In this document: in pieces, positions 1,782 to 29,106 of the stretch
Numbering within the stretch: the stretch's first letter is position 1
How the letters are laid out: every line of letters begins with the position of its first letter
Assembly: GCA_003326215.1 (NCBI GenBank)
Contig: LXQD01000205.1
Location: 1-32,000 of the forward strand
Reading direction: 5' to 3'
Origin: Nostoc minutum NIES-26
GTDB taxonomy: Bacteria; Cyanobacteriota; Cyanobacteriia; Cyanobacteriales; Nostocaceae
DNA length: 32,000 nt
Translations under genes and position numbers: made by a program
The notes under the pieces: model-generated
Told to the model about the DNA's origin: nothing
The model's database searches: none
What the model saw: the letters and a program-made list of their open reading frames with translations, nothing else

Positions 1782-3761
1782 ATGGTATATATATCACATG
1801 GGAGAAGTAATGTTTTGATGCCTAAATTAATTACTTCAAATCGTGTCAGCCGACAATTCATTCATTGGTTGCTGGCAGAAGACCGACAAGAGAAGAAAGG
1901 TCCGTACAGGAAGGAACAAACACACCGCAAACACCCTTGGTGGCAGGTGATGTGTTTGACTGGTGTAGATTATTTTTCAACACTTGGCTACCAACCTGGA
2001 ATTGCAGCAATAGCCGCAGGCGCTCTTTCTCCTGTGGCTACTCTAGTTTTAGTTCTGTTAACACTTTTTGGAGCTTTGCCAATTTATCGGCGTGTTGCTG
2101 CTAAAAGTCCTCATGGTGAAGGTTCGATCGCAATGCTCGAACATTTGCTACCCTGGTGGCAAGGTAAGCTATTTGTCCTTTGCTTACTTGGTTTTGTGGC
2201 AACAGACTTCATCATTACCATTACACTATCGGCTGCTGATGCCACGGCTCACATTATCGAAAATCCGCTCGCCCCGAATTTCGTTCACAATCAGGAAGTC
2301 GGAATCACGCTGGTATTAATTGCATTATTAGGTGCGGTTTTCCTGCGAGGTTTTCGAGAAGCGATCGGGATTGCAGTATTTTTAGTGGGAGTTTATTTGC
2401 TGTTAAACTCGATTGTTATTGGCGTTGGTCTGTATCAGATCCTAAATCACCCATCTGCGATCGCTAACTGGCAAACAGCACTTTTTGCACAACATTCTAA
2501 CCCTCTGTTAATGCTCGGCGCAGCTATTTTGGTATTTCCCAAGCTAGCACTGGGATTGTCAGGCTTTGAAACTGGCGTGACTGTCATGCCTCTTGTACAA
2601 GGTAGCAGCAGCGACACCCCCGAAAAGCCCAAAGGACGTATTCGGAATACGCGCAAGCTGCTTACCACTGCTGCGTTGATTATGAGCTTCTTTTTAATTA
2701 CCAGCAGCTTTATCACTACTCTACTGATTCCGGCAGCAGAATTTGCAACTGGGGGCAAAGCAAATGGACGTGCCCTTGCTTATCTAGCACATCTTTATCT
2801 AGGTAATAGCTTTGGCACAATTTATGATTTAAGTACCATTAGCATTCTGTGGTTTGCAGGTGCATCGGCAATGGCAGGGCTGCTGAATATTGTGCCTCGC
2901 TATCTGCCACGCTATGGGATGGCACCTAACTGGACAAGAGCAACGCGACCTTTAGTATTGGTGTATGTAGCTATTGCCCTTATTGTCACAATTATCTTTC
3001 GGGCTGATGTCGAAGCCCAAGGTGGGGCTTACGCAACAGGTGTGCTGGTGTTGATGAGTTCCGCTGCGTTGGCTGTAACTTTGTCAGTCCACCGTCAGAG
3101 GTCAAGGCGAGCAACACTTGTGTTTGCACTTATCACACTGGTATTTATATTCACTACTGTTGTAAATATCATTGAAAGACCAGAGGGCATCAGGATTGCT
3201 TCGTTCTTTATTGGTGCTATTGTTCTCACCTCATTAATTTCCCGTGTTTGGCGTTCCACCGAACTGCGAGTAGAAAGGATTGAAATTGACGAAAAAGCTC
3301 GCCAATTCATTGCTGAGGAAAGCCAAGGTGCAATCCGCATAATTGCTAATCGATTCAATAAGGGCGACGAGCTAGAGTATTTTTTAAAAGAGAAAGAGGT
3401 GCGCGAAGACAATCACGTTCCGTCCACCGACCCAGTTCTTTTTCTCGAAATTATGGTGTCAGATGCTTCCGACTTTGCTGATGTCATCAAAGTAAAGGGA
3501 GTGCAGGTTGGTGATTACCGTATCCTGCGTGCTGAGAGTGCAGCGGTTCCCAATGCGATTGCGGCTTTACTTCTTCATATTCGCGACCAAACCGGAAAGA
3601 TTCCACATGCTTACTTCGGCTGGGCAGAAGGAAACCCGATACAATACTTGCTACGTTTTATTTTGTTTGGTGAGGGTGATATTGCTGTGGTCACTCGTGA
3701 AGTCCTTCGGAAAGCTGAGAAAGATACCGAACGTCGTCCTGGTATTCATGTAGGCGGGTGA
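1782..3761 (+). CDS. polytopic membrane protein, APC-superfamily-like permease with a soluble C-terminal domain of about 170 aa
   Basis: 659-aa ORF. It has many hydrophobic helices (e.g. [43 protein letters not shown]) and the motif [15 protein letters not shown], which I associate with amino-acid-permease-like transporters. The C-terminus is charged. The true start may be the internal ATG near 1818 (MPKLITSN). Confidence 0.6.
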
Positions 3762-3780
3762 AAGGGAGAGCAGGAGAGGC

Positions 3781-3815
3781 AGGGGGAGCAGGGGGAGCAG
3801 GGGAAGCAGGGGAGG
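3781..3815. repeat. short tandem repeat, about four copies of a 9-nt unit AGGGGGAGC / AGGGGAAGC
   Basis: Period 9 read directly (A followed by a G-run at 3781, 3790, 3799, 3808). The same repeat family recurs inside lysC (10384-10468) and flanks an insert in the response regulator (16280-16300, 16371-16392). Confidence 0.85.
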
Positions 3816-4021
3816 AAGAATCTCACAATCGTCTTCGCTCTTACAATTGAATAATTTAATTTCTGGAAGTCCCTAACTTCTGTCTCTTGTCTTATTAATG
3901 GTGGTTAATGGTGGAAAAGGAGGGTTTTTTAGAATTTTTTCAATTGTTTGCTCTCCATTAGCTATTTAGAGGCTGTTAGACTGGAAATTATAAGTATAAT
4001 TTCGTATATTTTTGCGAATTT

Positions 4022-4399
4022 ATGGAGCCAGCATCACTAACAGCAGCGGCTATTGCTACTTTGGTCATCACTAAGGCTTTTGAAAAGACTGGCGAAATCG
4101 TCGGTGAAAAGGTTTGGGAGGAAGGCGAACAGTTGTTATCACTACTGAAGCGCAAAGAACCTAGTACGGCGAGTGCGATTGAACTGACTCAAGCACTACC
4201 TTTAGATTATAGTCGGGCTTATCTGATTGGGCAGCAAGTAGAAGAAGCGGCGCAGAAAGACCCTGAGATTGCTGAAGCAGTGGAAGCTGTAGCCAAGGAG
4301 GCACAACCGAAACTGACGAATACTATTATTGAAAATTGGCAGGGAATAAATATTAAAGGTGGGACTAATACCATTTCTGGCAATACCTTTAATTTCTGA
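4022..4399 (+). CDS. helical N-terminal (effector-like) module, separated from the downstream NB-ARC/TPR ORF by one in-frame TGA
   Basis: 125-aa ORF. It has a hydrophobic first helix (SLTAAAIATLVITKAF), charged helices, and a G/N/T-rich tail NIKGGTNTISGNTFNF. It is in the same reading frame as 4460..6805, and TGA 4397-4399 is the only stop between them. Confidence 0.6.
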   Translation: MEPASLTAAAIATLVITKAFEKTGEIVGEKVWEEGEQLLSLLKRKEPSTASAIELTQALPLDYSRAYLIGQQVEEAAQKDPEIAEAVEAVAKEAQPKLTNTIIENWQGINIKGGTNTISGNTFNF

Positions 4400-4459
4400 C
4401 TACAGTCGCCCGCAGGGGAACGGGTAAAGTTAAATCCCCCTACTGAAATACCGCAAAAT

Positions 4460-6805
4460 TTGCCCCTGAGTGGGGTGGTGGAATTTGTCGGACGTGAAGA
4501 GGAATTGCAAAACCTCCACCAACTTTTGCAGGATAATAAACAAGTAGCAATAGCAGCGATCGCTGGCATGGGTGGAGTCGGGAAAACAGAACTCGCCCTG
4601 CAATATGCCATCAACAAGCGCGAAACATATAACGGTGGGCTTTGCTGGTTGCTACCAAAAACCGGGGATGTGGGCATTCAAGTTGTGCAGTTTGCCAGAA
4701 CGCAGCTTGATTTAAATCCACCAGAAGATTTTGATTTATTGGCGCAAGTGCAATATTGCTGGCGGCGTTGGCGTGAAGGTGATGTGCTGCTAGTGTTGGA
4801 TGATGTTGGCGACTACCAAGAAGTTAAGCCTTACTTCCAGTCCCTACCTTCTCGGTTTAAAGTGTTGATGACTACGCGCCAGAACTGGGGACGCATTGCA
4901 AAGTTATCTTTGGATGTGCTGCTACCAGAGGCGGCGCTGGAGTTGTTGAGGTCTTTACTCAAAGAAACACCAGAGCGAATTGAGCGAGAATTAGCTGTAG
5001 CAAATCAGTTGTGTGAGTGGCTGGGATATTTACCTTTGGGTGTGGAATTAGTGGGGCGCTATCTGGCGCGAAAACAGGATTTATCTCTAACAGAAATGTT
5101 GCGGCGGTTGGAGAACAAGCGACTAGATGAGCGTTCCCTCTTTAAATCTAAGTCGGAAGCCGACATGACAGCACAACGAGGGGTGTTAGCAGCCTTTGAG
5201 TTGAGTTGGCAAGAATTAGAAGACGACGATAAACAATTGGGCTGTTTATTGAGTTTATTTGCCGCCGCACCCATACCTTGGAAGTTGGTAGAACAGTGTT
5301 TACCAGAAGAAGATGCGGAAGATTTAGAAGAAATTAGAGATGATAAGTTGCTGAATTTGCATTTACTTCAGCGCAAAGGTGAGGGAATTTACCAACTGCA
5401 TTCACTGCTAAGGGAGTTTTTCCAATATAAGTGTACAGGTTTAGAACAGGCAGAGGAATTAAAGCGATCGCTTTGCAACGAAATCGTAGTAGTTGCCAAG
5501 GAGATTTCGCCAATGCCCACCCTTGAGCAAATTACTGCCGTCTCCCCCGCTGTACCTCATATAGCTGAAGTTGCGAAGAATCTCATTGAATACATTAGCG
5601 ACGATGATTTACTTTGGCCTTTCGTCGGTAACAGTCGATTTTATTATGGTCAGGGGTTATATGACCAGGCTTTACCTTGGTTTGAGCAGTGTTTAGAAGT
5701 CATTAAAAAGCGTTTGGGAGAGGAGCATCCAGATGTTGCCACTAGCCTCAACAACCTAGCGGAACTCTACCATTCCCAAAGCAGATACAGCAAAGCCGAA
5801 TCCCTATTACAGCAAGCTTTAGCACTCAGGCGTAGGCTACAGGGACAGGAGCATCCAGATGTTGCTACTAGCCTCAACAACCTAGCGTTACTCTACCATT
5901 CCCAAGGCAGATACAGCGAAGCTGAACCCTTATTACAGCAAGCTTTAGTACTCAGACGCAGGCTGCTGGGAGAGGAGCATCCAGATGTTGCACAGAGCTT
6001 CAACAACCTAGCGTTACTCTACCATTCCCAAGGCAGATACAGCAAAGCCGAACCCCTGTATCAGCAAGCTTTAGCACTCAAGGGCAGGCTGCTGGGAGAG
6101 GAGCATCCAGATGTTGTACTTAGCCTTAGCAACCTAGCGTTACTTTACTACTCCCAAGGCAAATACGGCGAAGCTGAACCCCTATTACAGCAGACTTTAG
6201 CACTTAGGCGTAGGCTGCTGGGAGAAGAGCATCCAGATGTTGCACAGAGCCTCAACAACGTAGCAGGACTCTACGACTCCCAAAACAGATACAACGAAGC
6301 CGAACCACTGTATCAGCAGGCTTTAGCACTTGGGCGTAGGCTGCTAGGAGAGGAGCATCCAGATGTTGCGACTAGCCTCAACAATCTAGCGTCACTCTAC
6401 TACTCCCAAAGCAGATACAGCGAAGCCGAACCCCTCTACCAGCAAGCTTTAACACTCAGGCGCAGGCTGCTGGGAGAGGAGCATCCAGATGTTGCACTTA
6501 GCCTTAACAACCTAGCGTTACTTTACTACTCCCAAGGCAGATACAGCAAAGCCGAACCCCTCTACCAGCAAGCTTTAACACTCAGGCGCAGGCTGCTGGG
6601 AGAGGAGCATCCAGATGTTGCACTTAGCCTTAACAACCTAGCGTTACTTTACTACTCCCAAGGCAGATACAGCAAAGCCGAACCGTTGTACATGCAAGCA
6701 TTAGATATTTTTGAGCGATGGTTAGGCACAAATCATCCTAATACTGTGACTGTGCGTGAAAATTTAGCATATTTGCGCGATCGCCTCACCTCAAATCCAG
6801 AATAA
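4460..6805 (+). CDS. STAND NTPase: NB-ARC-type P-loop domain plus about 8.5 TPR (kinesin-light-chain-like) repeats
   Basis: Walker A GMGGVGKT (4565-4588), Walker B LLVLDDV, and eight 42-aa repeats of the form LGEEHPDVAxSLNNLALLYxSQGRYSxAEPLYQQALxLRRRL. The ORF-track start is a TTG. The frame is open upstream back to the TGA at 4397-4399. Confidence 0.9.
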   Translation: MPLSGVVEFVGREEELQNLHQLLQDNKQVAIAAIAGMGGVGKTELALQYAINKRETYNGGLCWLLPKTGDVGIQVVQFARTQLDLNPPEDFDLLAQVQYCWRRWREGDVLLVLDDVGDYQEVKPYFQSLPSRFKVLMTTRQNWGRIAKLSLDVLLPEAALELLRSLLKETPERIERELAVANQLCEWLGYLPLGVELVGRYLARKQDLSLTEMLRRLENKRLDERSLFKSKSEADMTAQRGVLAAFELSWQELEDDDKQLGCLLSLFAAAPIPWKLVEQCLPEEDAEDLEEIRDDKLLNLHLLQRKGEGIYQLHSLLREFFQYKCTGLEQAEELKRSLCNEIVVVAKEISPMPTLEQITAVSPAVPHIAEVAKNLIEYISDDDLLWPFVGNSRFYYGQGLYDQALPWFEQCLEVIKKRLGEEHPDVATSLNNLAELYHSQSRYSKAESLLQQALALRRRLQGQEHPDVATSLNNLALLYHSQGRYSEAEPLLQQALVLRRRLLGEEHPDVAQSFNNLALLYHSQGRYSKAEPLYQQALALKGRLLGEEHPDVVLSLSNLALLYYSQGKYGEAEPLLQQTLALRRRLLGEEHPDVAQSLNNVAGLYDSQNRYNEAEPLYQQALALGRRLLGEEHPDVATSLNNLASLYYSQSRYSEAEPLYQQALTLRRRLLGEEHPDVALSLNNLALLYYSQGRYSKAEPLYQQALTLRRRLLGEEHPDVALSLNNLALLYYSQGRYSKAEPLYMQALDIFERWLGTNHPNTVTVRENLAYLRDRLTSNPE
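5711..6721 (+). repeat. eight tandem 126-nt coding repeats (TPR units), including a perfect duplication
   Basis: 6425-6558 is identical to 6551-6684 (period 126 nt), checked base by base. The other units are highly similar. Confidence 0.95.
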
Positions 6806-6856
6806 GCAAGTTTTGTGCAAACTGTACCATGTTAAAAGTTAGATTTGCGATCGCCT

Positions 6857-7025
6857 AAACTCGGTCTTTCGTGTTCTGAACTCGGCTTTTCATGTTCCGA
6901 ACGAGAATGTTTCTGTTCCAAGTGAGAACGTTCTCGTTTAGAACGAGAATGTTCCTGTTTGAAGTGAGAAAGTTTCTGTTCCAAGTGAGAATGTTTTAGT
7001 TTCAAGCTCGACGTTCCGAGTTCTG
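6857..7025. repeat. noncoding tandem array, eight units of about 21 nt (consensus roughly AAsyGAGAAyGTTyCyGTTyyr)
   Basis: Units read at 6857, 6879, 6900, 6921, 6942, 6962, 6984 and 7005. The array contains GTTCYGAAC palindromes (6873-6881, 6894-6902) and the 12-nt palindrome GAGAACGTTCTC (6924-6935). No frame is open across it. Confidence 0.85.
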
Positions 7026-7026
7026 A

Positions 7027-7059
7027 GGTGGAATGATGGTGTTGTAAACGCGATCGCTC
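7027..7059. repeat. 33-nt conserved element, copy 1 (GGTGGAATGATGGTGTTGTAAACGCGATCGCTC)
   Basis: Aligns with copies at 7489-7521 (4 mismatches) and 8203-8235 (about 6 mismatches), all in the same orientation. It abuts the 21-nt array. Confidence 0.8.
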
Positions 7060-7148
7060 GTCTAAAACTCATTAGACTACATTAACAGCGATCGCTTCTC
7101 GGCACATTTTAAAGGCTATTCCATTCTTTTTTCACAAAATCCCGACGC

Positions 7149-7421: not shown

Positions 7422-7488
7422 GAAATCTCGCGTTGTGCTACCAGTTTTATTTTATGTTAAAAAATTGATTTCTCTGGCAGTTTACCTC

Positions 7489-7544: not shown

Positions 7545-7907
7545 TTATATTGGTAATCGCCTCAGCCGGAAAGTTTCATTATTTACAGAAATAATTACCC
7601 CTACCTCTAAATCTTCTTGACATTCACGCAAAACTTGCATCAACCGTTCATTAATTGCATCGTAATTTTCATTCCCTAACCTAAATAAAATCACACTGGG
7701 TAAACTATCCCCACTAACTGCTAAAAGTTGGGCAAAATCTAAATCTATACTTAATAAAATTCTCCCTTCTGTACGGGCTTTAATTAAAATCTCATCATCT
7801 GGTAGTTTTTGCAAACCTTCATCGCGCAAATGCACTACATCATAACCACCACTACGCAACCAAAATACAGTGCGTAATGAAATTCCCATATCTGCCAAAA
7901 ACTTCAT
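7545..7907 (-). CDS. DUF5615-type PIN-like / Mut7-C-like putative toxin
   Basis: 120-aa ORF beginning MKFLADMGIS...VVHLRDEGL..LPDDEIL. It sits 9 nt downstream of a DUF433-like gene, which is the usual pairing for this family. Confidence 0.6.
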   Translation of the reverse strand: MKFLADMGISLRTVFWLRSGGYDVVHLRDEGLQKLPDDEILIKARTEGRILLSIDLDFAQLLAVSGDSLPSVILFRLGNENYDAINERLMQVLRECQEDLEVGVIISVNNETFRLRRLPI

Positions 7908-8429: not shown

Positions 8430-8999
8430 ATGATAGCCTCCTCCCAACAGAATTACCTTACCCCTGAAGAGTACCTCCAACTAGAGGAACAAAACTCTGT
8501 TAAACATGAATACATCGACGGCTACATCTACGCAATGGCTGGGGCGCTTGACCCACATGTTACCATTGCTCTTAACCTTGCTTCTCTCCTCCGCAATCAT
8601 GTACGCGGTACTGGGTGTCGCGTTTACATCGCCGACATGAAAGCACGAATTGAATCTCTAAATCGCTTTTACTATCCCGATGTTATGGTTACTTGCGATC
8701 CACGCGATCGAGAAACACCAGCCTATAAAAGATTTCCTTGTTTAATTGTCGAAGTTTTATCCGATTCTACCGAAGCCTTTGACCGGGGCGATAAATTCGC
8801 CGACTACCAAGCGCTGGAAAGCCTCCAAGAATATACTTTAATTAATACAAAACGTCAGCGAGTCGAGTGTTTTCGTCGCAATGATGAGGGGCTGTGGGTT
8901 TTACAATCTTACACATCAGAAAATCAAACATTTCGGCTTAACAGTGTGGATTTCCAGGAAACAATAGTATCACTTTACGAAGATGTAGTTTTTGAATGA
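8430..8999 (+). CDS. Uma2-family (DUF820) putative endonuclease
   Basis: 189 aa, with EYIDGYIYAMAG, YYPDVMV, LIVEVLSDST and GDKFADYQALESLQEYTLI, matching the PD-(D/E)xK-like Uma2 pattern common in cyanobacteria. Confidence 0.8.
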   Translation: MIASSQQNYLTPEEYLQLEEQNSVKHEYIDGYIYAMAGALDPHVTIALNLASLLRNHVRGTGCRVYIADMKARIESLNRFYYPDVMVTCDPRDRETPAYKRFPCLIVEVLSDSTEAFDRGDKFADYQALESLQEYTLINTKRQRVECFRRNDEGLWVLQSYTSENQTFRLNSVDFQETIVSLYEDVVFE

Positions 9000-15594: not shown

Positions 15595-18009
15595 ATGAGA
15601 ATCTTGCTGATTGAAGATGACGAGATATTAGCGAGTGTCTTGTTGCAGTCTCTTACCCAACAACACTATGTTGTTGATACCGCACATGACGGACAAACTG
15701 GTTGGGAATATGCCCAAGGCACGCAGCACGACCTGATATTACTAGATGTGGGACTGCCAAAGCTGGATGGAATTACATTATGTCAACGCTTACGTTCTGA
15801 TGGCTATTCTGCTCCTATTTTGTTGATGACAGCGAAAGATGCAACTAGCGATCGCATTCGTGGACTCGATGCTGGAGCAGATGATTATCTGATTAAACCT
15901 TTGGATTTGGGAGAACTCCAAGCAAGAGTCAGGGCGTTGCTGCGTCGGGGCGATACTCCCCGTACTCCAGTGCTAGAAGTTGGTGCATTACGGTTAGATC
16001 CAAGTAGCTGTCAGGTAACATACAATAATCAACTGCTAGATTTAACACCCAAAGAATACAGTTTGCTGGAACTTTTGCTGCGGAATCCCTCGCGGGTTTT
16101 CAGTCGGGGAAATATCATCGAGCATCTCTGGACTTTCGACGATCCACCCCAAGAAGAAAGCGTCAAATCGCACATTAAAGGCTTGCGACAAAAGATGAAA
16201 GCAGCCGGAGCAGCAGACTGGATTGAAAACGTATATGGTTTGGGATATCGTCTGAATCCATCTTCAGGAGGAAGAGAAGTAGGAGAGCAGGGGAGCAGGA
16301 AGAGAAGTTGCCATAGCGTAGCGTTAGCGAGTCATCGAGCGTCGGAGGGTTTCCCTCCAAGCAAACTTCGGGGAGCAGAGGAGCAAGGGAGAAACTTTAA
16401 TCCAAAATTGCAAATCCCAAATTCTGAAGTTGAACAACAGTTCAACCAAGCTATGAGTGGCTTGTGGAGTCAATATCAGGGGTTGATGACACAACGGATG
16501 GAGGTAGTACAACAAGCAGCAGCAGCCATTTCTAGCAAAACGCTGACTCAAGAGTTACGCCAATCCGCAGAACGGGAGGCGCACAAGCTAGCTGGTGTCT
16601 TGGGAATGTTTGAGCAAGAAACTGGTACTCAGATAGCGCGAGAAATCGAACAGATTTTAGGCAAAGATGGAGACTTGTTACCAGCCCAAAAACGTCGGGT
16701 GTTGTCGCTAATACAAGAGTTAGCTGAATTGCTCAACCTGATGGGACAAAAGGTAGTTAATCAACCTACTATCTCGATGGTGGAAGAAATCAGTGCCAGA
16801 TTGCTACTAATTGACCCCGATTTGCAACTTGGTTTTCAGCTACAAGAACTGGCGCAATCTGAAGGAATAGGCTGGCAGCAAATCACAACCCTAGAAAGTG
16901 CGAAAAACTACCTGCAAACGACATTACCAGATTTAGTGGTGCTGAGTGTAGATGAAGTGGGGCTGCGGGAAGCAAGTTTAGCAATGCTTTCAGACTTAGC
17001 AACTCGCACCCCTCCTGTACCCGTGCTTGTGCTGGCTGCTGCTGATGGGTTGGTAGATCGCGTGAGCGTTGCTAGGTCTGGGGCGCGGGGTTTTCTGGTC
17101 AAGCCTGTCACCGCGAATCAAGTTTGGGATGTTGGGTCTGCACTATTACAGCGCACCCATTCTCTAACAGTCAATTTACTAGTAGTAGATGACGATCCGC
17201 TGATTTTGGCAGCTTTACGCCCAATGTTAGAGCCTTGGGGTATGCGTGTTACAGGATTAGACGAGCCGGTACGTTTCTGGGATGTACTGCAATCTACCAC
17301 ACCCGATTTGTTGATTTTGGATGTGGAGATGCCGCAAATAAGTGGTATTGAACTTTGCCAAGCAGTTCGTACAGATCCCCAGTGGCAGGAATTGCCGATT
17401 GTATTTCTCACCGCGCACCGAGAGATGGAAACTGTGCAGCAGGTATTTGCAGCTGGAGGAGATGATTATGTGGTCAAACCTGTCGTTGTGGCAGAACTGG
17501 TGGCAAGGATAACCCATCGCTTAGAACGCAGTCGTCTGCTTCACTCTTTCTGCACTCAAGACCCTTTAACCCGACTAGCAAATCAATCTCAGTCTAGCCG
17601 CGACTTGCAGCACCTGATTGCTCAAGCAAACAAAAATCAACACCCTGTTTGCTTAATGGTATTGAGTGCAATCGAGTTGCACCAAATTAATATCCAGTAC
17701 GGTCATGAGGCCGGCAACCAAGTCTTGCAACGATGGAGTCGTCTGTTTCAATCGACATTTTGTAGTGGCGAATTACTCAGCTATTGGGGCAACGGGGAGT
17801 TTGTGGTGGGAGTGTCTGGATTGACAAAAACAGAAGTAAGCACTCAGCTCAGTGATATTTTGACTACCCTTCGCCAACAAATATTCACAGCATCCAATGG
17901 CGATCGCTTCCAGGCAACATGTAGTTTTGCGATAGTTGAGTATCCTAATGATGGATTAACAATACAATCTCTCTATAAAATTGCTAATTCTACCTTGAAG
18001 CATAATTAA
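15595..18009 (+). CDS. multidomain response regulator: REC - OmpR-type wHTH - HPt - REC-like - REC - degenerate GGDEF
   Basis: 804 aa. REC1 has D51 (15745-15747) and LIKP. The wHTH region reads LTPKEYSLLELLL...VYGLGYRL. The HPt motif is EAHKLAGVLGMF (His at 16582-16584). The second REC-like region carries VLSVD and LVKP, and the third REC carries VVDDD, LILDVEMP and VVKP. The C-terminal domain starts DPLTRLAN and has GNGEF (17788-17802) in place of GGDEF, and it lacks the usual DxD. Confidence 0.9.
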   Translation: MRILLIEDDEILASVLLQSLTQQHYVVDTAHDGQTGWEYAQGTQHDLILLDVGLPKLDGITLCQRLRSDGYSAPILLMTAKDATSDRIRGLDAGADDYLIKPLDLGELQARVRALLRRGDTPRTPVLEVGALRLDPSSCQVTYNNQLLDLTPKEYSLLELLLRNPSRVFSRGNIIEHLWTFDDPPQEESVKSHIKGLRQKMKAAGAADWIENVYGLGYRLNPSSGGREVGEQGSRKRSCHSVALASHRASEGFPPSKLRGAEEQGRNFNPKLQIPNSEVEQQFNQAMSGLWSQYQGLMTQRMEVVQQAAAAISSKTLTQELRQSAEREAHKLAGVLGMFEQETGTQIAREIEQILGKDGDLLPAQKRRVLSLIQELAELLNLMGQKVVNQPTISMVEEISARLLLIDPDLQLGFQLQELAQSEGIGWQQITTLESAKNYLQTTLPDLVVLSVDEVGLREASLAMLSDLATRTPPVPVLVLAAADGLVDRVSVARSGARGFLVKPVTANQVWDVGSALLQRTHSLTVNLLVVDDDPLILAALRPMLEPWGMRVTGLDEPVRFWDVLQSTTPDLLILDVEMPQISGIELCQAVRTDPQWQELPIVFLTAHREMETVQQVFAAGGDDYVVKPVVVAELVARITHRLERSRLLHSFCTQDPLTRLANQSQSSRDLQHLIAQANKNQHPVCLMVLSAIELHQINIQYGHEAGNQVLQRWSRLFQSTFCSGELLSYWGNGEFVVGVSGLTKTEVSTQLSDILTTLRQQIFTASNGDRFQATCSFAIVEYPNDGLTIQSLYKIANSTLKHN
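16265..16395. repeat. in-frame repeat-derived insert in the regulator linker
   Basis: GGAGAGCAGGGGAGCAGG and GGGGAGCAGAGGAGCAAGGGAG flank GCCATAGCGTAGCGTTAGCGAG...CGGAGGGTTTCCCTCC. The inner piece resembles GCGTAGCGTCGACC...CGGAGGGAGACC at 30955-31000. Confidence 0.7.
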
Positions 18010-20949: not shown

Positions 20950-21564
20950 ATGTTTCAGCCTTTAGTAGAACCGATAATCTTTGAAGAATTTCTGGAATGG
21001 AAACCAGAAAATGGCAGATATGAATTACATAAAGGAGCCATATTTGAAATGCAGCCAACAGGAGACCATGAGCTAGTTAGAGCATTTTTGATTAGAGAAC
21101 TCAATTTTGAGATTCGTAAGTTTAATTTAGCTTATACAATTCCTGGTCAAGCATTAGTCAAATCAGTTGATAAGAAATCTGGTTATATTCCAGATGTATT
21201 AGTATTGAATGTCCCTAACTTGGTTAATGAGCCATTTTGGAAAAAGTCATCTACGGTTACTCAAGCAGAATCAATTCCATTGGCAGTAGAAGTTGTCAGT
21301 ACAAATTGGCGAGATGATTATTTCCTAAAATTTGGTGAATACGAGGAAATTGGAATTCCAGAATATTGGATTGTTGACTATGCTGCTCTTGGCGGAAAGC
21401 GGTTTATTGGAAATCATAAACAGCCAACAATATCAGTTTATGTTTTAGTTGACGGTGAATACCAAGTTACTCAATTCCGGGGTAATGATAAAATTCAATC
21501 GCCAACTTTCCCAGAGTTAAATTTAATCGCTGAACAAGTGTTTCAGTCTGCTTTGATTGAATAG
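20950..21564 (+). CDS. Uma2-family (DUF820) putative endonuclease
   Basis: 204 aa, with YELHKGAIFEM, YIPDVLVL, PLAVEVVSTNW, and KFGEYEEIGIPEYWIVD. Confidence 0.8.
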   Translation: MFQPLVEPIIFEEFLEWKPENGRYELHKGAIFEMQPTGDHELVRAFLIRELNFEIRKFNLAYTIPGQALVKSVDKKSGYIPDVLVLNVPNLVNEPFWKKSSTVTQAESIPLAVEVVSTNWRDDYFLKFGEYEEIGIPEYWIVDYAALGGKRFIGNHKQPTISVYVLVDGEYQVTQFRGNDKIQSPTFPELNLIAEQVFQSALIE

Positions 21565-23212: not shown

Positions 23213-23821
23213 ATGGTACAAGTGCTCGCTCCTAACGAAACGTTCTTGCAAAATGCAATTGTTGAAAGAATTAACTTTTCTAAGTTAAACAAAACTCGTA
23301 TTCGCTTTAGTATTAGGTTGAAAAACAGTACAATTAGTGCAGCACCTAAATGGGCAGATGTGCTAAAAACTTCTGACACTGACACCGAATCCGACTTAAT
23401 CAAGGTGACGAATTCTGAAGTCGGTCTGCGCGGCATCAAGGTATTCAAAGCCCTGAATGAAGCAGCCTCCCAACTCAGGCAAGAAATTGCATCAGTGCAG
23501 GAGTGGATGAGTTCTGACAACGGAGATTGGATCTGTCCGATAGACCTTGCACCTTTGGTTTGGAGTCAGTTGCTCAACATCCGAGACGCGATCGCTCCCA
23601 ATCTCCGCGCTGGACTACTAGACGAGTACGAGAAAGGCTTAGAAGATTACAAGCAACGAATAGAAAACTTCATCTCTATCCAGGCTTGGGAACTGTCACA
23701 CCTTCAGCAAGAAGAAGTCAAAGCTAATCTGCTAAGAGCTTTTCCAAATTTAAGCGAGTTAGAAGATTGTTTGCAGGTAATCATCGGTCGCCCCGTTATG
23801 ATCCCAGCATTGGTGCATTAG
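23213..23821 (+). CDS. hypothetical protein, last gene of the operon; its 3' end overlaps the convergent methyltransferase gene
   Basis: 202-aa ORF with natural-looking composition (…LLDEYEKGLEDYKQRIENFISIQAWELSHLQQEEVKANLLRAF…). It overlaps 23796..25970 by 26 nt. Confidence 0.5.
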   Translation: MVQVLAPNETFLQNAIVERINFSKLNKTRIRFSIRLKNSTISAAPKWADVLKTSDTDTESDLIKVTNSEVGLRGIKVFKALNEAASQLRQEIASVQEWMSSDNGDWICPIDLAPLVWSQLLNIRDAIAPNLRAGLLDEYEKGLEDYKQRIENFISIQAWELSHLQQEEVKANLLRAFPNLSELEDCLQVIIGRPVMIPALVH

Positions 23822-25970
23822 TATAATTTGTAGTGGCATGGCAAGGTGAGCGAGAAATGCGATCGCTTGCCTTGCCACTAACGGATATTATGGGAATACG
23901 GGACATTTCACGCTCTTGAGCATACTGCTTTTTTAGGGTTTCAATAGAAGCAAGGTAAGTACGGATGCTTTTTTCCCATTCCTCAGTACCGTAGGTTCGT
24001 AATAGTTCGAGCGCACTTGCTTCAATTTGATACACAGTTTTTGGACTGTTGATAGGGCGGCTCAGATCGTCTGGATTAGCAACTATCAAAGCGGCATCCA
24101 GAAATTGATGTACTGTCTGGCGGCGTACTGTTTCTCGTGTATTGGGCTTATAGGTTTTGCCATAATGCTGAGCCATGAATTCCATCATCGGCGTGATTCC
24201 CATAAAAGGGGAAGTTGCTAATTGCCAAGAGTCTGTCGGCTTTAAGTCAAGTAACGCCAGAAGGGTTAAAGCTGACCGTTCGTTAAGCTGTCTTCGTGGA
24301 AAGCCCAATTGTGACAAAATTTGCACCGCTTCATCAATTCGAGACTTAATTGCGATGGGATTGTTGCCTGACTGATTCGACATACTCAGTAACTTATTTT
24401 CCACAAGTTCATCGATTGCGCGCAAAGAGAGAAACTGTTCTTTGATTTCCGTCCCTAAAGACAATAGTTGTTCCAAAGTAGGATACTTTAATTTCCGCAA
24501 ATCTGTTGCATTTACCTGAGTATGTCCATTGAACAACCGAAAGAATGAATCAACCAAGGTTGAATTAAGATAAACTGCAAGCCCACAAGCCAAGGTATAG
24601 CTAAGTCCACGCCCCTGTTTGTGAAAGTAATTCAAGTGATTTTCAAAGCCGACATAAGCATAATCGAATCGATCGGCATTATAAATGACCGCAACAACCC
24701 GTCTTTTCTCTTCTTTTGACGAAAATCTTTTGCAGAGGACATAATGCTCATTTGGTACCAGAAGATTCTTTGTTTCTGCTCTATGCACTATAGCTTGGGG
24801 CTTTTTGGTTATTTTGGGATGCTCTATATATCCATCTGAGAAATTTACCGGATAAATCAAAGGAACAGTATTTTTTTCGGAATTTGTTCTGAGGTAATTT
24901 TTAGCTCGAAAATCTACAACCTTTCCAGTTGAAACTGTTAGCCCTAAATCTTGCAAAGTGCAAGTGAAAAGTGCCATTTGCTGAACAATTTGCTGGCTAA
25001 TTTTATCTGGAAGAATATGAATGAACTGCTCTTTATCGTCAGGGTGAACTAAATTCGCATATGGTACAGAGTGTGACATGATATAGTCATCATTAGCACC
25101 AAAGCTAGTATTAATGATTACGCTGCTAAACTTTTGCTCTTGTTTTGTAGCTCGGACGATCGCAGTTTCTTGTAGAACATCATCATTAAATGCTTCTTGC
25201 CGCGACTCAAAAAGATGTACTTGTTGTAAAGCCATCATCTCCAAAAACATCTTCCGAAAGTCACAAAAATACGGGCCATTGCAAAAACTACGCGGGGTAA
25301 TCGCTACAAACTCCCCTTTTGGTTTTAGCAGTTTTGCTGTGGCAGCCATAAAACCAGTATAAAGATTGCTAGTTTCCAAACCTATAGAACGTAGCAATTT
25401 CCGAACTTGGGAATGAGCATTGATTTTTAAATAAGGTGGATTGAGGATTGCATGGGTAAATTCTGCTGGATTTGTATTATTTAATAAACCAAGCTGAAGT
25501 CGCTTAACAGCATCTTCAATAAAATCAGTCTCACGAATTTCGTAATTGAAAGAAATACTTACATGTTGGCATTCTCTGGCACATAGCTCTAAAGTCTGGC
25601 GCAAATACCCGATCAGAAAAGGGTCAATTTCATAGGCTACAATACGTAAACTTGACGTATGTTGCTGCTGGCATACTTTGGTCACAAAAGCGGCTAGTAA
25701 TGAACCGATTCCAGCTCCGGCATCAAGCAAAAATATTTCAGGCAAATCCAGCCTATCAAACATCCCAGCCATCAATTCCGCCACCGAAGCGGGGGTGAGA
25801 AACTGCCCCATTAATCCTTTTTTATTTTGTCTTAGTTTAAAACTTGCTACAGCCCGATGCAGATCCACTTCTGCAAGCAAGTTGCCCCTAGATAATTGTG
25901 CTAGGCTGCTAAAACCTAAAATACTTCTATCACTTGCTACGAAAGCTTTACTACTTGATGGAATGCTCAC
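23796..25970 (-). CDS. N6-adenine DNA methyltransferase (gamma-class, Eco57I/PstI-like) fused to a BsuBI/PstI-type restriction endonuclease N-terminal DNA-binding domain; the nuclease domain is missing
   Basis: 724 aa. The SAM motif LLDAGAGIGSL precedes the catalytic NPPY (AILNPPYLKI). Residues from about 540 to 690 (…LGFPRRQLNERSALTLLALLDL…GITPMMEFMAQHYGKTYKPNTRETVRRQTVHQF…) match my memory of the BsuBI/PstI RE N-domain. The ORF ends about 35 aa later in unrelated sequence. Confidence 0.8.
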   Translation of the reverse strand: MSIPSSSKAFVASDRSILGFSSLAQLSRGNLLAEVDLHRAVASFKLRQNKKGLMGQFLTPASVAELMAGMFDRLDLPEIFLLDAGAGIGSLLAAFVTKVCQQQHTSSLRIVAYEIDPFLIGYLRQTLELCARECQHVSISFNYEIRETDFIEDAVKRLQLGLLNNTNPAEFTHAILNPPYLKINAHSQVRKLLRSIGLETSNLYTGFMAATAKLLKPKGEFVAITPRSFCNGPYFCDFRKMFLEMMALQQVHLFESRQEAFNDDVLQETAIVRATKQEQKFSSVIINTSFGANDDYIMSHSVPYANLVHPDDKEQFIHILPDKISQQIVQQMALFTCTLQDLGLTVSTGKVVDFRAKNYLRTNSEKNTVPLIYPVNFSDGYIEHPKITKKPQAIVHRAETKNLLVPNEHYVLCKRFSSKEEKRRVVAVIYNADRFDYAYVGFENHLNYFHKQGRGLSYTLACGLAVYLNSTLVDSFFRLFNGHTQVNATDLRKLKYPTLEQLLSLGTEIKEQFLSLRAIDELVENKLLSMSNQSGNNPIAIKSRIDEAVQILSQLGFPRRQLNERSALTLLALLDLKPTDSWQLATSPFMGITPMMEFMAQHYGKTYKPNTRETVRRQTVHQFLDAALIVANPDDLSRPINSPKTVYQIEASALELLRTYGTEEWEKSIRTYLASIETLKKQYAQEREMSRIPIISVSGKASDRISRSPCHATTNYTNAPMLGS

Positions 25971-28728: not shown

Positions 28729-29106
28729 TCAGTTGCCTGCAATAAACTTTTGAGCTTCTTCAATGGCGGCGGTTAACTCTTCGCGACTGCTAGCTTTGAC
28801 TTTAAGCTTCTTACCATTAGCTTCAACTTCTAATTCAATTGGTTTATTACCCAAGCGATCGCCCAAAAATCCCAGCAATTTCTTAAAATTGGCAAGGCTC
28901 ACCTCAGCTTGCAACACTCCCAGCAGAAAACCTCCAAAAGCTTTCGATCCTTCAGGTGTTTCTGTAACTGCTACAAGTTCAGCACTTTCTACATCTAAGT
29001 CTTGTATTTCCCGCAACAGATTTCGCGTTTGCTGCTCTTGTTCCTCTGGATCTAAGTCTGGATTAGTAAGAGCGATCGTTAGTTTGACGTTAGATTCAGA
29101 ACTCAT
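28729..29106 (-). CDS. small acidic protein resembling the effector-associated constant component EACC1
   Basis: 125 aa, ending 29 nt upstream of the caspase ATG, with AAGGAAG in between. The C-terminal pattern GGFLLGVLQAEVSLANFKKLLGFLGDRL...IELEVEANGKKLKVKASSREEL resembles EACC1 as I recall it (not searched). Confidence 0.6.
   Translation of the reverse strand: MSSESNVKLTIALTNPDLDPEEQEQQTRNLLREIQDLDVESAELVAVTETPEGSKAFGGFLLGVLQAEVSLANFKKLLGFLGDRLGNKPIELEVEANGKKLKVKASSREELTAAIEEAQKFIAGN

What the first reader, a model, noticed from the sequence alone, without database searches (positions are those of the whole stretch)
4022..6805. One in-frame TGA separates an N-terminal helical module from an NB-ARC/TPR STAND NTPase
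ORFs 4022..4399 and 4460..6805 share a reading frame. The only stop between them is TGA at 4397-4399. The 20 codons after it (LQSPAGERVKLNPPTEIPQN) are open and run directly into LPLSGVVEFVGREEEL and the Walker A motif GMGGVGKT. The downstream ORF has no ATG or GTG start; the track start is a TTG. The upstream 125 aa look like the N-terminal modules of bacterial NLR-like proteins. They have a hydrophobic first helix (SLTAAAIATLVITKAF), charged helices, and then a G/N/T-rich strand-like connector (NIKGGTNTISGNTFNF) of the kind that usually precedes the NTPase domain in cyanobacterial STAND proteins. The hydrophobic first helix recalls membrane-targeting Bell/HeLo-like execution domains, but that link is inference only. 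Three readings are possible: a freshly inactivated immune-type receptor, a functional split into effector and sensor, or stop-codon readthrough that controls the dose of the full-length protein.
Basis: partly seen in the sequence, partly recalled or inferred. Interest (0 to 1): 0.65.

Follow-up and report, generated by a model that had tools for sequence, protein, structure and literature searches.

The report
Leaky stop joins death-effector to sensor
A small cell-death protein gene and the immune-sensor gene behind it are separated by one stop codon plus a small RNA hairpin that are conserved across many cyanobacteria. This suggests ribosomes sometimes read through the stop and make a fused effector-sensor protein, which would be a rare, untested case of programmed readthrough in a bacterial chromosome.

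Summary
ORF 4022-4399 (125 aa) ends in TGA, and frame 0 stays open into an NB-ARC/TPR NLR that ends at 6805.

The small protein is a Bell domain carrying a C-terminal BASS7 amyloid-signalling motif (Dyrka et al. 2020). It is not a decayed N-terminus.

Across 79 related loci, 67 end in TGA. All 54 of these with a recognisable NLR continue in frame 0, with spacers of 72, 75, 78 or 84 nt and no conserved start codon. Relatives that end in TAA or TAG have a separate, out-of-frame NLR with its own ATG and its own BASS copy. This switch happened about nine times on the tree.

Eight nt after the TGA (context TGA-CTA) lies a 5-bp hairpin with compensatory changes, and possibly a pseudoknot.

A metagenome scan for the hairpin alone gave 22 matches. 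All 22 had TGA exactly 10 nt upstream, including behind alpha/beta-hydrolase heads fused to NACHT bodies.

Best reading (about 0.6): a portable UGA-readthrough cassette yields free effector plus a rare effector-NLR fusion. No protein evidence exists, and the first 28 post-stop codons show RNA-level rather than coding constraint. Pseudogene and assembly error are excluded, and selenocysteine is unlikely. I found no prior description.

The parts
4022..4399 (+). Short ORF (125 aa plus TGA) encoding a Bell domain with a C-terminal BASS7 motif. This is the termination product.
   Evidence: There are 192 homologues, and the best 120 are all 88-163 aa stand-alone proteins. dN/dS is 0.24.
4022..4330 (+). 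Bell domain, residues 1-103. It is a helical bundle with a hydrophobic first helix and a MEPIS-type N-terminus (MEPASLT).
   Evidence: It is 82% identical to RCJ33357.1, the 'Nosto' Bell example in Dyrka 2020. The MEPIS motif is described. AlphaFold2 predicts helices over residues 6-106, with block-mean pLDDT 71-88 for residues 11-90.
4331..4396 (+). BASS7 amyloid-signalling motif, ENWQGINIKGGTNTISGNTFNF.
   Evidence: It matches the bass_07 rows of Dyrka 2020 Table S2, for example AKG20974.1 ...ENWQGINIKGGTNTINNNTFNF paired with NLR AKG24489.1. It is predicted to be disordered in the monomer, with pLDDT below 50 over residues 107-125.
4397..4399 (+). Conserved in-frame UGA, the proposed leaky stop.
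   Evidence: TGA is the stop in 67 of 79 related loci. It is invariant in every in-frame junction and lies exactly 10 nt upstream of all 22 hairpin matches found in metagenomes.
4400..4407 (+). Eight-nt spacer CUACAGUC. Its first codon, CUA, gives the UGA-CUA context.
   Evidence: CTA follows the stop in 51 of 54 loci. TGACTA occurs in 0 of 32 background TGA stops.
4408..4425 (+). RNA hairpin GCCCG-CAGGGGAA-CGGGU: a 5-bp stem and an 8-nt loop, -7.4 kcal/mol.
   Evidence: It is 99.5% paired in 44 distinct junctions, with CG/UA/UG/GC alternation at two pairs. None of 500 shuffles reached the observed values, and slid controls paired 18-52%. RNAalifold predicts it independently. All 44 pattern matches in the fetched loci lie within 14 nt after a TGA.
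4416..4438 (+). Tentative second stem of an H-type pseudoknot: loop GGGA (4416-4419) pairing with UCCC (4435-4438).
   Evidence: It is 96.6% paired, with AU:3 and GU:5 at one pair. It was proposed after looking at the sequences, so the support is weak.
4400..4483 (+). Twenty-eight post-stop codons (LQSPAGERVKLNPPTEIPQNLPLSGVVE) linking the UGA to the FVGR start of the NOD module.
   Evidence: They are always open and in frame, with spacer lengths of 72, 75, 78 or 84 nt. Synonymous sites are nearly frozen, dN/dS is 0.73 and there is no 3-base periodicity. The IPxNLPxSG motif is internal and translated in related NLRs.
4460..4462 (+). TTG that gene callers use as the NLR start. It is not a conserved start.
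   Evidence: It is TTG in only 38 of 54 loci and otherwise another Leu or Ile codon. Five of 54 loci have no ATG, GTG or TTG before FVGR, and 53 of 54 have none upstream of the conserved IPQN motif. P0121 shows the annotated start.
4484..5158 (+). NB-ARC NTPase module: FVGR at 4484-4495, Walker A at 4565-4588 and Walker B at 4787-4807.
   Evidence: Pfam PF00931 scores 54.7 bits against a cut-off of 23.5. Motif coordinates are. dN/dS is 0.18.
5603..6736 (+). TPR sensor array of nine TPR_12 units.
   Evidence: Pfam TPR_12 E-value is 1.5e-144. The array has a 126-nt period, 7.7 copies and 87% identity.
4400..6805 (+). The whole open frame after the UGA, 801 codons plus TAA. With readthrough, the product from 4022-6805 would be Bell-BASS7-linker-NB-ARC-TPR, about 927 aa.

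Best explanation
This is one expression unit with a programmed leaky stop.

Most ribosomes terminate at UGA 4397-4399 and release a 125-aa Bell-BASS7 protein. That protein is a membrane-targeting cell-death effector with an amyloid-forming tail.

A minority of ribosomes decode the UGA with a near-cognate tRNA, most likely tRNA-Trp. They continue in frame and make Bell-BASS7-linker-NB-ARC-TPR. Readthrough would be favoured by the UGA-CUA context and by a hairpin, possibly a pseudoknot, that sits 8 nt downstream at the mRNA entry channel.

The rare fusion is the sensor. When the TPR array binds its trigger, the NB-ARC oligomerises and brings the BASS7 segments together. They nucleate an amyloid fold that templates the abundant free Bell-BASS7, whose Bell domains then damage the membrane.

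The UGA-plus-hairpin junction is a portable cassette. In other cyanobacteria it also joins other BASS types and alpha/beta-hydrolase heads to NB-ARC, NACHT, nSTAND1 or transmembrane bodies.

Shown here: the anatomy, family membership, conservation of the UGA, frame, context and hairpin, and the contrast with TAA/TAG two-gene relatives.

Inferred: readthrough itself, the inserted amino acid, the product ratio, and the signalling steps. The signalling steps are carried over from published work on Bell/BASS and HET-S/NWD2.
For: 1. Stop identity tracks architecture. Of 79 loci, 67 use TGA. All 54 TGA loci with an FVGR-type NLR are in frame 0. The TAA/TAG loci have the NLR 128-205 nt away in frames 2,2,2,1,1,1,0, with its own ATG and its own N-terminal BASS copy. 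The Bell tree shows about 9 transitions between the two types.

2. The TGA and the following CTA are invariant across a tree of 4.65 substitutions per site, about 9 at third positions.

3. There are four spacer lengths and all are multiples of 3. Unrelated bodies (nSTAND1-WD40, a divergent NB-ARC, TM-PsbP-like, TM-PPC and TM-Pro-rich proteins) are all open in frame 0 directly after the TGA.

4. There is no conserved start codon. Five of 54 loci have none before FVGR. In 53 of 54, none lies upstream of the IPxN part of the IPxNLPxSG motif, which is internal and translated in related NLRs.

5. The NLR ORF has no BASS of its own, so it can only acquire one through the UGA.

6. A hairpin 8 nt after the UGA shows compensatory changes. 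Synonymous sites are frozen for about 75 nt after the stop. Enhanced synonymous-site conservation next to the stop, a UGA-CUA context and a stem after an 8-nt spacer are each described at viral readthrough sites (PMC3159437).

7. In an unbiased metagenome scan for the hairpin alone, 22 of 22 matches have TGA at -10, and 20 of 22 are open in frame for at least 100 codons or to the contig end.

8. L076 keeps the hairpin with one extra nt in the loop. The encoded peptide changes, yet the ORF after the TGA stays in frame 0.

9. UGA is the leakiest stop (PMC7026636), and in E. coli it is read almost always as Trp (PMC11126739).

10. All-in-one NLRs with Bell-like MEPIS N-termini are active antiphage proteins, so the fused architecture has precedent.
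Against: - There is no protein, ribosome-profiling or reporter evidence.
- The 28 codons after the UGA show no coding signature. dN/dS is 0.73 and diversity by codon position is .185/.147/.183. An untranslated but conserved RNA spacer would look the same.
- Forty-nine of 54 loci do have a TTG or GTG before FVGR, and annotation pipelines start the NLR there.
- The hairpin is small (5 bp, -7.4 kcal/mol), and the window region folds no better than shuffles (z = 0.22).
- The 25-codon linker variant shows no covariation.
- I found no precedent for a hairpin stimulating near-cognate readthrough on bacterial ribosomes, and the effect of +4C in bacteria is disputed.
- Some alpha/beta-hydrolase heads carry the cassette without an obvious amyloid motif, so the templating rationale cannot be universal.
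- The loci are related paralogues and orthologues, so raw counts overstate independence.
Confidence: 0.6

Rival explanations
1. These are two separately translated proteins with no readthrough. The NLR initiates at the TTG or GTG (or at a non-canonical codon) just before FVGR. The conserved UGA-hairpin element acts as an intercistronic regulator, for example in translational coupling, ribosome pausing, mRNA processing or binding of a regulator. The NLR talks to Bell-BASS7 by some route that needs no BASS on the NLR.
For: Forty-nine of 54 loci have a TTG or GTG within 24 nt of FVGR. Gene callers annotate the NLR that way (P0121). The linker lacks a coding signature and behaves like a conserved RNA. 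Short distances and polycistronic Bell-NLR pairs are the norm in the published two-gene systems.
Against: It does not explain why the frame is 0 in 54 of 54 loci across four spacer lengths and several unrelated bodies. It does not explain why the stop is never TAA or TAG at this junction, or why no stop occurs in the linker. It does not explain why the start codons drift like ordinary Leu and Val codons and are absent in 5 loci. Such starts would cut the conserved IPxNLPxSG motif and, in L033 and L069, the transmembrane helix. The NLR would have no BASS, although every TAA/TAG relative has one.
Confidence: 0.2
2. This is dedicated recoding rather than near-cognate leakage. The UGA plus hairpin would be a SECIS-like signal for selenocysteine, or for another amino acid delivered by a specialised tRNA or factor.
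For: A UGA, a hairpin immediately downstream and a continuing ORF together make up the formal definition of a bacterial selenoprotein gene (PMC7026636). The hairpin loop is conserved in sequence (GGGAA).
Against: The Sec-decoding trait (SelA/SelB) was not detected in Cyanobacteria (PMC1794560). There is no Rfam match and no tRNA in the window. The UGA sits at a domain junction in many unrelated proteins, not in a redox site. Relatives with a sense fusion or with two genes have no Cys at the position.
Confidence: 0.05
3. This is a DNA-level cassette. The roughly 45-nt junction would be kept uniform by frequent recombination or gene conversion that shuffles effector heads onto NLR bodies, and the TGA and hairpin would be hitch-hikers with no role in translation.
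For: The same junction joins many different heads and bodies. The Bell tree and the stop type are interleaved. The nucleotide sequence is more conserved than the peptide.
Against: Paired compensatory changes that keep the stem point to selection on RNA rather than to homogenisation. The element diverges normally elsewhere. The idea gives no reason for the strict frame or for the exclusive use of TGA. Shuffling and readthrough are also compatible with each other.
Confidence: 0.1
4. This is a recently broken fused gene (a pseudogene) or a sequencing or assembly error.
For: A single in-frame stop in an otherwise intact 927-codon frame looks like a nonsense mutation.
Against: The same TGA is present in 67 loci from independent assemblies and in 22 metagenome contigs. 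There is no sense-codon version among the 80 loci, and no protein spanning this junction in the protein searches. Both halves are under purifying selection.
Confidence: 0.01

Closest known systems
Bell-BASS / BASS-NLR two-gene amyloid signalling pairs of filamentous bacteria (Dyrka et al. 2020, bioRxiv 10.1101/2020.01.06.895854)
   Same: It has the same Bell domain; a close paralogue is one of that paper's examples. It has the same BASS7 motif at the Bell C-terminus, the same collinear adjacent NB-ARC-TPR partner, and the same Nostocales hosts.
   Different: The defining second copy of the motif at the NLR N-terminus is absent. Instead the NLR frame continues from the Bell gene through an invariant UGA followed by a hairpin. 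The published screen required a motif on both proteins and would have missed this form. Neither that paper nor the 2024 paper mentions stop codons or readthrough.
Viral UGA readthrough signals: alphavirus and tobra-, peclu-, furo- and pomovirus UGA-CUA/CGG with a 3' stem, and the MuLV gag-pol pseudoknot (Firth et al. 2011, PMC3159437)
   Same: It shares the UGA-CUA context, a structure that starts after an 8-nt spacer, enhanced conservation of synonymous sites after the stop, compensatory substitutions in the stem, and two products from one mRNA.
   Different: Those signals act on eukaryotic ribosomes and eRF1, and their stems are much longer (12 or more bp spanning about 140 nt). Here the stem is 5 bp, possibly with 4 more in a pseudoknot, in a bacterial chromosome. 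Function is untested.
Coliphage Q-beta coat/A1 UGA readthrough (cited as reference 27 in PMC7026636; the details are my own knowledge)
   Same: It is bacterial translation in which a UGA is read at low frequency by tRNA-Trp. This gives an abundant short protein and a rare C-terminally extended one that is functionally required.
   Different: It is a phage gene rather than a chromosomal gene family. No conserved 3' hairpin cassette is known there, and the extension is a capsid domain rather than a sensor.
All-in-one NLRs with Bell-like (MEPIS) N-termini, such as Avast2/Avs2 and bNACHT02/11/23, and the Bab/Agp amyloid antiphage pair (bioRxiv 10.1101/2024.11.07.622273)
   Same: The predicted readthrough product has the effector-NOD-repeat order of those NLRs. 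The short product resembles Bab, which is a Bell-like domain plus an amyloid tail acting in abortive infection.
   Different: Those are either true fusions or true two-gene pairs. Here a single locus would make both forms.
Bacterial selenoprotein genes (UGA plus SECIS)
   Same: It has an in-frame UGA, a hairpin directly downstream and a continuing ORF.
   Different: The host phylum lacks the Sec trait. The position is a domain linker, there are no Cys homologues, and there is no Rfam hit.

Membership tests
Bell domain (Dyrka et al. 2020) | An N-terminal helical domain of about 100 aa with a conserved hydrophobic first helix and a MEPIS-type N-terminus, homologous to named Bell proteins. | tested here: met
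   The sequence begins MEPASLTAAAIATLVITKAFEKTGE. It is 82% identical to RCJ33357.1, the 'Nosto' sequence in the paper's Bell alignment. AlphaFold2 predicts helices over residues 6-106. Pfam has no model that matches it.
Bell domain (Dyrka et al. 2020) | Membrane-targeting, cell-death activity. | not testable with these tools
   The Foldseek search against the PDB gave nothing significant; the best E-value was 0.57, to Bcl-2-like bundles.
BASS7 amyloid signalling motif | A sequence match to the BASS7 motif located at the C-terminus of a Bell protein. | tested here: met
   ENWQGINIKGGTNTISGNTFNF compares with Table S2 bass_07 rows such as ENWQGINIKGGTNTINNNTFNF.
BASS7 amyloid signalling motif | A matching copy at the N-terminus of the adjacent NLR (paired motif). 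| tested here: not met
   The downstream ORF begins with LQSPAGERVK...FVGR and has no motif. TAA/TAG relatives such as L067, L070 and L071 do have one. The NLR would carry the motif only through readthrough.
BASS7 amyloid signalling motif | Forms amyloid or prion-like fibrils. | not testable with these tools
   Only disorder in the monomer model is seen.
NLR-like STAND NTPase (NB-ARC plus TPR) | An NB-ARC domain above the Pfam cut-off with Walker A and Walker B motifs, followed by a repeat sensor. | tested here: met
   PF00931 scores 54.7 bits against 23.5. GMGGVGKT and LLVLDDV are present, with nine TPR_12 repeats.
Programmed stop-codon readthrough | A conserved leaky stop with a conserved 3' context and a maintained downstream frame. 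| tested here: met
   TGA is invariant and CTA follows in 51 of 54 loci. Frame 0 holds in 54 of 54 loci with four spacer lengths. TGA is present in 22 of 22 hits in the unbiased scan.
Programmed stop-codon readthrough | A 3' RNA structure supported by covariation at the spacing where it can act on the ribosome. | tested here: met
   A 5-bp hairpin lies 8 nt after the UGA. It is 99.5% paired, with double-sided changes at two pairs, and none of 500 shuffles reached the observed values. The pseudoknot stem is inconclusive. The short linker variant is inconclusive.
Programmed stop-codon readthrough | A protein-coding signature in the extension. | tested here: inconclusive
   The first 28 codons give dN/dS 0.73 with no periodicity, probably masked by constraint on the RNA. 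The next 70 codons give dN/dS 0.18.
Programmed stop-codon readthrough | The extended protein is detected, and its level depends on the signal. | not testable with these tools
   This needs mass spectrometry, Ribo-seq or reporters.
Bacterial selenoprotein gene | Sec machinery in the lineage, Cys homologues at the UGA position, and a SECIS element. | tested here: not met
   I did not search these genomes for the machinery. The literature reports that the Sec trait was not detected in Cyanobacteria. Relatives have no Cys at the junction. There is no Rfam hit.

The most novel reading that the evidence does not exclude
Filamentous cyanobacteria would own a portable recoding cassette of UGA-CUA, an 8-nt spacer and a hairpin or pseudoknot. 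It encodes L-x-S/P-P-E-x-E-R-x-K-x-N-P. The cassette is spliced between interchangeable death-effector heads (Bell with various BASS motifs, or alpha/beta hydrolases) and interchangeable sensor bodies (NB-ARC-TPR, NACHT, nSTAND1-WD40, transmembrane receptors). One mRNA would then yield abundant free effector and a rare effector-sensor fusion at a hard-wired ratio. In the amyloid versions, sensor and effector would carry a literally identical templating motif. This would be the first conserved, structure-assisted stop-codon readthrough signal in bacterial chromosomal genes, and a new way of wiring an NLR to its executioner.
Probability: 0.5. Interest if true: 0.9.

Novelty: new variant of a known kind. 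Interest (0 to 1): 0.82.

Why it matters
Programmed readthrough is well known in viruses and eukaryotes, but it is almost undocumented for bacterial chromosomal genes.

A conserved UGA-plus-hairpin cassette would give a defined bacterial readthrough signal that can be tested directly. Useful mutants include UGA to UAA or UGG, stem-breaking and stem-restoring changes, and changes to the CUA.

It would also change how Bell/BASS-NLR immunity is read. Many cyanobacterial NLRs now annotated with short TTG-start N-termini, and many 'hypothetical' 125-aa genes, would be halves of one recoded gene. The sensor-to-effector ratio and the identity of the amyloid motif would both be set by translation.

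In practice, motif-pair screens and gene callers systematically miss this class. Its size (67 of the 79 loci analysed here, plus 22 metagenome hits) suggests that it is a major form of the system in Nostocales.

Tried and rejected
- **Family searches on the 125-aa protein.** Pfam and PADLOC found nothing.
- **Structure search.** Foldseek of its AlphaFold2 model against the PDB found nothing significant. The weak Bcl-2-like matches (E 0.57 or worse) are not used.
- **Second 125-aa ORF.** The ORF at 28729-29106(-) upstream of a caspase gene looked like a possible paralogous pair, but its sequence is unrelated.
- **True fusions.** A junction-spanning query found only proteins covering one side, or unrelated N-domains such as P0133 and P0171. 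That tool listed only proteins up to 347 aa, so the negative result is weak. The profile search of 1.84 billion representatives found a few long Bell proteins (P0301, P0324, P0319). None is fused through this junction.
- **Rfam.** There were no gathering-level hits in the window, and only chance-level hits at the junction.
- **tRNA scan of the window.** None were found.
- **Single-sequence folding of 4388-4470.** It folds no better than shuffles.
- **Outer helix UGACU/AGUYA from RNAalifold.** It shows no double-sided changes and would be melted when the stop is in the A site, so it is not relied on.
- **Short (25-codon) linker variant.** It shows no covariation.
- **Promoter and terminator scan of 3700-7100.** Counts are at shuffle level. 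There is no terminator between the ORFs and no convincing internal promoter.
- **Hopping or frameshifting.** I considered and rejected these because the downstream ORF is in frame 0 and the last sense codon varies.

Full report
**1. Observation**

- An ATG at 4022 opens a 125-codon ORF that ends in TGA at 4397-4399.
- The same frame then runs open for 801 codons to TAA at 6803-6805.
- Between the TGA and the Walker A motif (GMGGVGKT, 4565-4588) there is no ATG. The first TTG is at 4460 and GTGs are at 4475 and 4478.
- Pfam finds NB-ARC (54.7 bits against a cut-off of 23.5) and nine TPR_12 repeats downstream. It finds nothing in the short ORF, and PADLOC finds nothing there either.

**2. What the short ORF is**

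The short ORF is a conserved stand-alone gene.
- A protein search found 192 homologues. The best 120 are all 88-163 aa stand-alone proteins of heterocystous cyanobacteria.
- An exhaustive profile search of 1.84 billion cluster representatives found 448 families. Almost all of the best 150 are 56-197 aa.
- The closest genome is Dendronalium phyllosphericum CENA369, at 98% identity.

It is a Bell domain with a BASS7 tail.
- The paralogue in locus L014 of Nostoc punctiforme NIES-2108 is RCJ33357.1. That is the 'Nosto' sequence in the Bell-domain alignment of Dyrka et al. 2020.
- The N-terminus MEPASLT fits the 'MEPIS' motif shared by Bell, Hell and Bab domains.
- The C-terminal ENWQGINIKGGTNTISGNTFNF matches the BASS7 rows of that paper's Table S2.
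- AlphaFold2 predicts a helical bundle over residues 6-106 and a disordered tail over 107-125. Foldseek against the PDB gave no significant match.

**3. Comparative anatomy of the junction**

A scan of one genome per species returned 80 loci. With the window, 79 have an intact short ORF.

Stop codon use divides the loci into two architectures.
- 67 loci end in TGA, 8 in TAA and 4 in TAG.
- In 59 TGA loci the frame stays open for at least 200 codons directly after the stop.
- The other 8 TGA loci are degraded NLRs, contig ends, or in-frame extensions of 124-133 aa.
- Every TGA locus with a recognisable NLR (54 of 54) has the FVGR motif in frame 0. It lies 72, 75, 78 or 84 nt from the stop.
- The TAA/TAG loci have the NLR 128-205 nt away in frames 2,2,2,1,1,1,0. 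Those NLRs have their own ATG and their own N-terminal copy of the Bell protein's C-terminal motif. In L067...ENWKGINIKGGNSTINNPNFNF-TAA is followed by MTTENWNGINIKGGNPVINIS.... These are the published two-gene form.
- On a neighbour-joining tree of the Bell domains the two types are interleaved, with about nine changes of state. The TGA loci alone span 4.65 substitutions per site, about 9 at third positions. The invariance of the TGA is therefore due to selection and not to recent ancestry.

Background values come from 215 long ORFs in the same DNA.
- TAA accounts for 57% of stops, TAG for 28% and TGA for 15%.
- TGA-C occurs in 3 of 32 TGA stops and TGACTA in none.
- No TGA is followed by 100 open in-frame codons.

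**4. No conserved start for the NLR**

- Between the TGA and FVGR, 5 of 54 loci have no ATG, GTG or TTG.
- The TTG that gene callers use (4460 in the window) is TTG in 38 of 54 loci. Elsewhere it is TTA, CTC, CTT or ATA, which is ordinary synonymous drift.
- In 53 of 54 loci no canonical start lies upstream of the IPQN residues.
- Those residues belong to an IPxNLPxSG...FVGR motif that is internal, and therefore translated, in related NLRs with other N-terminal domains (P0126, P0133, P0135, P0152, P0159, P0160).
- In L033 and L069 the first canonical starts fall inside or after the predicted transmembrane helix of the extension.

**5. An RNA element after the stop**

The 28 codons after the TGA do not evolve like ordinary coding sequence.
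- dN/dS is 0.73, against 0.24 for the Bell ORF and 0.18 for the NB-ARC start.
- Synonymous divergence is 0.21, against 0.44 and 0.41 in the two flanks.
- Diversity is flat across codon positions (.185/.147/.183).
- Synonymous sites are nearly frozen: CTA is used for 51 of 52 Leu at the first codon, and GAA, CGG, GTA, AAG and AAT are invariant.

A hairpin explains part of this.
- It reads GCCYG, an 8-nt loop, then CRGGY, and it begins 8 nt after the UGA (window 4408-4425).
- It is paired in 99.5% of cells in 44 distinct junctions.
- One pair alternates CG/UA/UG/GC and another CG/UA.
- None of 500 shuffles reached the observed values, and slid controls paired 18-52%.
- RNAalifold predicts it independently. 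Its energy is -7.4 kcal/mol, and it is the minimum-free-energy fold of the consensus.
- The compensatory changes are often non-synonymous, for example Pro to Ser paired with Val to Thr. The RNA is therefore more constrained than the peptide.

Further points on the RNA:
- A second stem pairing loop GGGA with downstream UCCC (4416-4419 with 4435-4438) would make an H-type pseudoknot. It is 96.6% paired with a few double changes, but I proposed it after seeing the sequences, so it is tentative.
- The 25-codon linker variant shows no covariation.
- The window region alone folds no better than shuffles.
- Rfam has no match.
- L076 keeps the hairpin with one extra loop nucleotide. Its peptide differs, yet a 407-codon NB-ARC ORF still follows in frame 0.
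- The two-gene relative L067 keeps the linker peptide SQSERAKLNPP but lacks the left arm of the hairpin.

**6. The junction is a portable cassette**

After the same TGA-CTN junction, frame 0 continues into several kinds of body:
- NB-ARC-TPR in most loci;
- nSTAND1-WD40 in L073;
- a divergent NB-ARC in L076;
- transmembrane proteins with a PsbP-like domain (L069), a PPC domain (L079) or a Pro-rich ectodomain (L033, L034).

An unbiased test confirms the link between hairpin and stop.
- I scanned metagenome contigs for the hairpin and its 3' flank, leaving the stop out of the pattern.
- The scan gave 22 matches on 21 contigs. All 22 have TGA exactly 10 nt upstream.
- 20 of the 22 are open in frame for at least 100 codons or to the contig end.
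- 16 upstream ORFs match the Bell profile and carry many different C-terminal motifs.
- 3 upstream ORFs are alpha/beta-hydrolase heads (L086, L091, L095). L086 is followed by a NACHT NTPase.
- Within the 80 genome loci, all 44 pattern matches also follow a TGA.

**7. Interpretation**

Pseudogene and assembly error are excluded by this conservation.

The simplest account of the data is programmed readthrough. It covers the invariant UGA, the strict frame, the absence of a conserved start, the NLR without its own BASS, and a covarying structure at an 8-nt spacing.
- Most ribosomes stop and release Bell-BASS7.
- A few continue and make Bell-BASS7-NB-ARC-TPR.

Published work supports parts of this.
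- UGA is the leakiest stop, and UGA-CUA is a classical leaky context (PMC7026636).
- UGA-CUA/CGG contexts, stems after an 8-nt spacer and enhanced synonymous-site conservation after the stop are each reported at viral readthrough sites, though for different viruses (PMC3159437).
- In E. coli, UGA readthrough inserts Trp almost exclusively (PMC11126739).

The functional logic is carried over from published Bell/BASS work and is inference. The rare fusion would be the sensor, and on oligomerisation its BASS7 would seed the abundant free effector.

Cautions:
- There is no protein-level evidence.
- The first 28 codons look like conserved RNA rather than coding sequence.
- Most loci do have a possible TTG or GTG start.
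- The hairpin is small.
- I found no bacterial precedent for hairpin-assisted near-cognate readthrough.
- The effect of +4C in bacteria is disputed.
- Some hydrolase heads lack an evident amyloid motif.
- The loci are not phylogenetically independent.

Selenocysteine is unlikely.
- The Sec trait was not detected in Cyanobacteria (PMC1794560).
- The site is a domain linker.
- Relatives have no Cys at the position.

**8. Novelty**

- Full-text searches found no description of readthrough or in-frame stops in Bell/BASS/NLR systems or in cyanobacterial NLRs.
- The two key papers contain neither 'readthrough' nor 'stop codon'.
- The published screen required the motif on both proteins, so it would not have seen this class.

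I rate this as a new variant of a known kind: a Bell/BASS-NLR system wired through a recoding cassette. Interest is high and depends on experimental confirmation.

Noticed in passing
window 26180-28699 (-) and 28729-29106 (-): An 839-aa protein combines an N-terminal caspase domain (Peptidase_C14), a transmembrane segment and a periplasmic-binding-protein domain (Peripla_BP_6). It is preceded by a 125-aa ORF with no Pfam hit that is unrelated to the Bell protein. This may be another conflict or cell-death module.
   Followed up: partly
window 5715-6684: The TPR array of the NLR is a 126-nt tandem repeat with 7.7 copies at 87% nucleotide identity. NLR lengths in relatives range from about 215 to 1053 codons. 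This suggests rapid gain and loss of repeats, or concerted evolution of the sensor.
   Followed up: no
window 3763-3812 and 6858-6996: Short tandem repeats flank the locus. A 9-nt unit AGGGGGAGC (5.6 copies) lies between the upstream 659-aa ORF and the Bell gene, and 21/42-nt repeats lie just after the NLR stop.
   Followed up: no
window 1782-3761 (+): A 659-aa ORF directly upstream of the Bell gene has no Pfam match at E 0.1 or better.
   Followed up: no
window 23796-25970 (-), 8430-8999 (+), 20950-21564 (+), 7545-7907 (-): The neighbourhood has defence-like genes. One is a fused Eco57I/N6 methylase with a BsuBI/PstI restriction-endonuclease HTH domain. There are also two Uma2-family putative endonucleases and a DUF5615/Mut7-C-like protein.
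   Followed up: no
window 15595-18009 (+): An 804-aa multi-domain response regulator carries three receiver domains plus Trans_reg_C, Hpt and GGDEF domains.
   Followed up: no
L086 (minus strand, junction near 7483-7487 of the reverse complement), L091, L095: Alpha/beta-hydrolase (DUF676/PGAP1-like) effector heads end in the same TGA-plus-hairpin cassette. In L086 it is followed in frame by a NACHT NTPase. L095 carries a FQTQIEGGTAYIA motif before the stop, which resembles motifs in the fused NLRs P0133 and P0171.
   Followed up: partly
L033, L034, L069, L079: Here the Bell-BASS-TGA junction continues in frame into single-pass transmembrane proteins with Pro-rich, PsbP-like or PPC ectodomains. 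These may be membrane receptors that are wired in the same way as the NLRs.
   Followed up: partly
L007, L025, L092, L096, L021, L037: These are decayed copies of the system. Two have premature stops inside the Bell ORF (L007, L025), one has a second stop two codons after the TGA (L092), and three have truncated NLR bodies. They could serve as natural controls for which half is lost first.
   Followed up: no
proteins P0126, P0128, P0132, P0142, P0188, P0195: Close relatives of this NB-ARC clade carry other N-terminal modules, including effector-associated domains PF19959 and PF19954 and TIR. The N-terminal head is therefore highly interchangeable in this NLR lineage.
   Followed up: no
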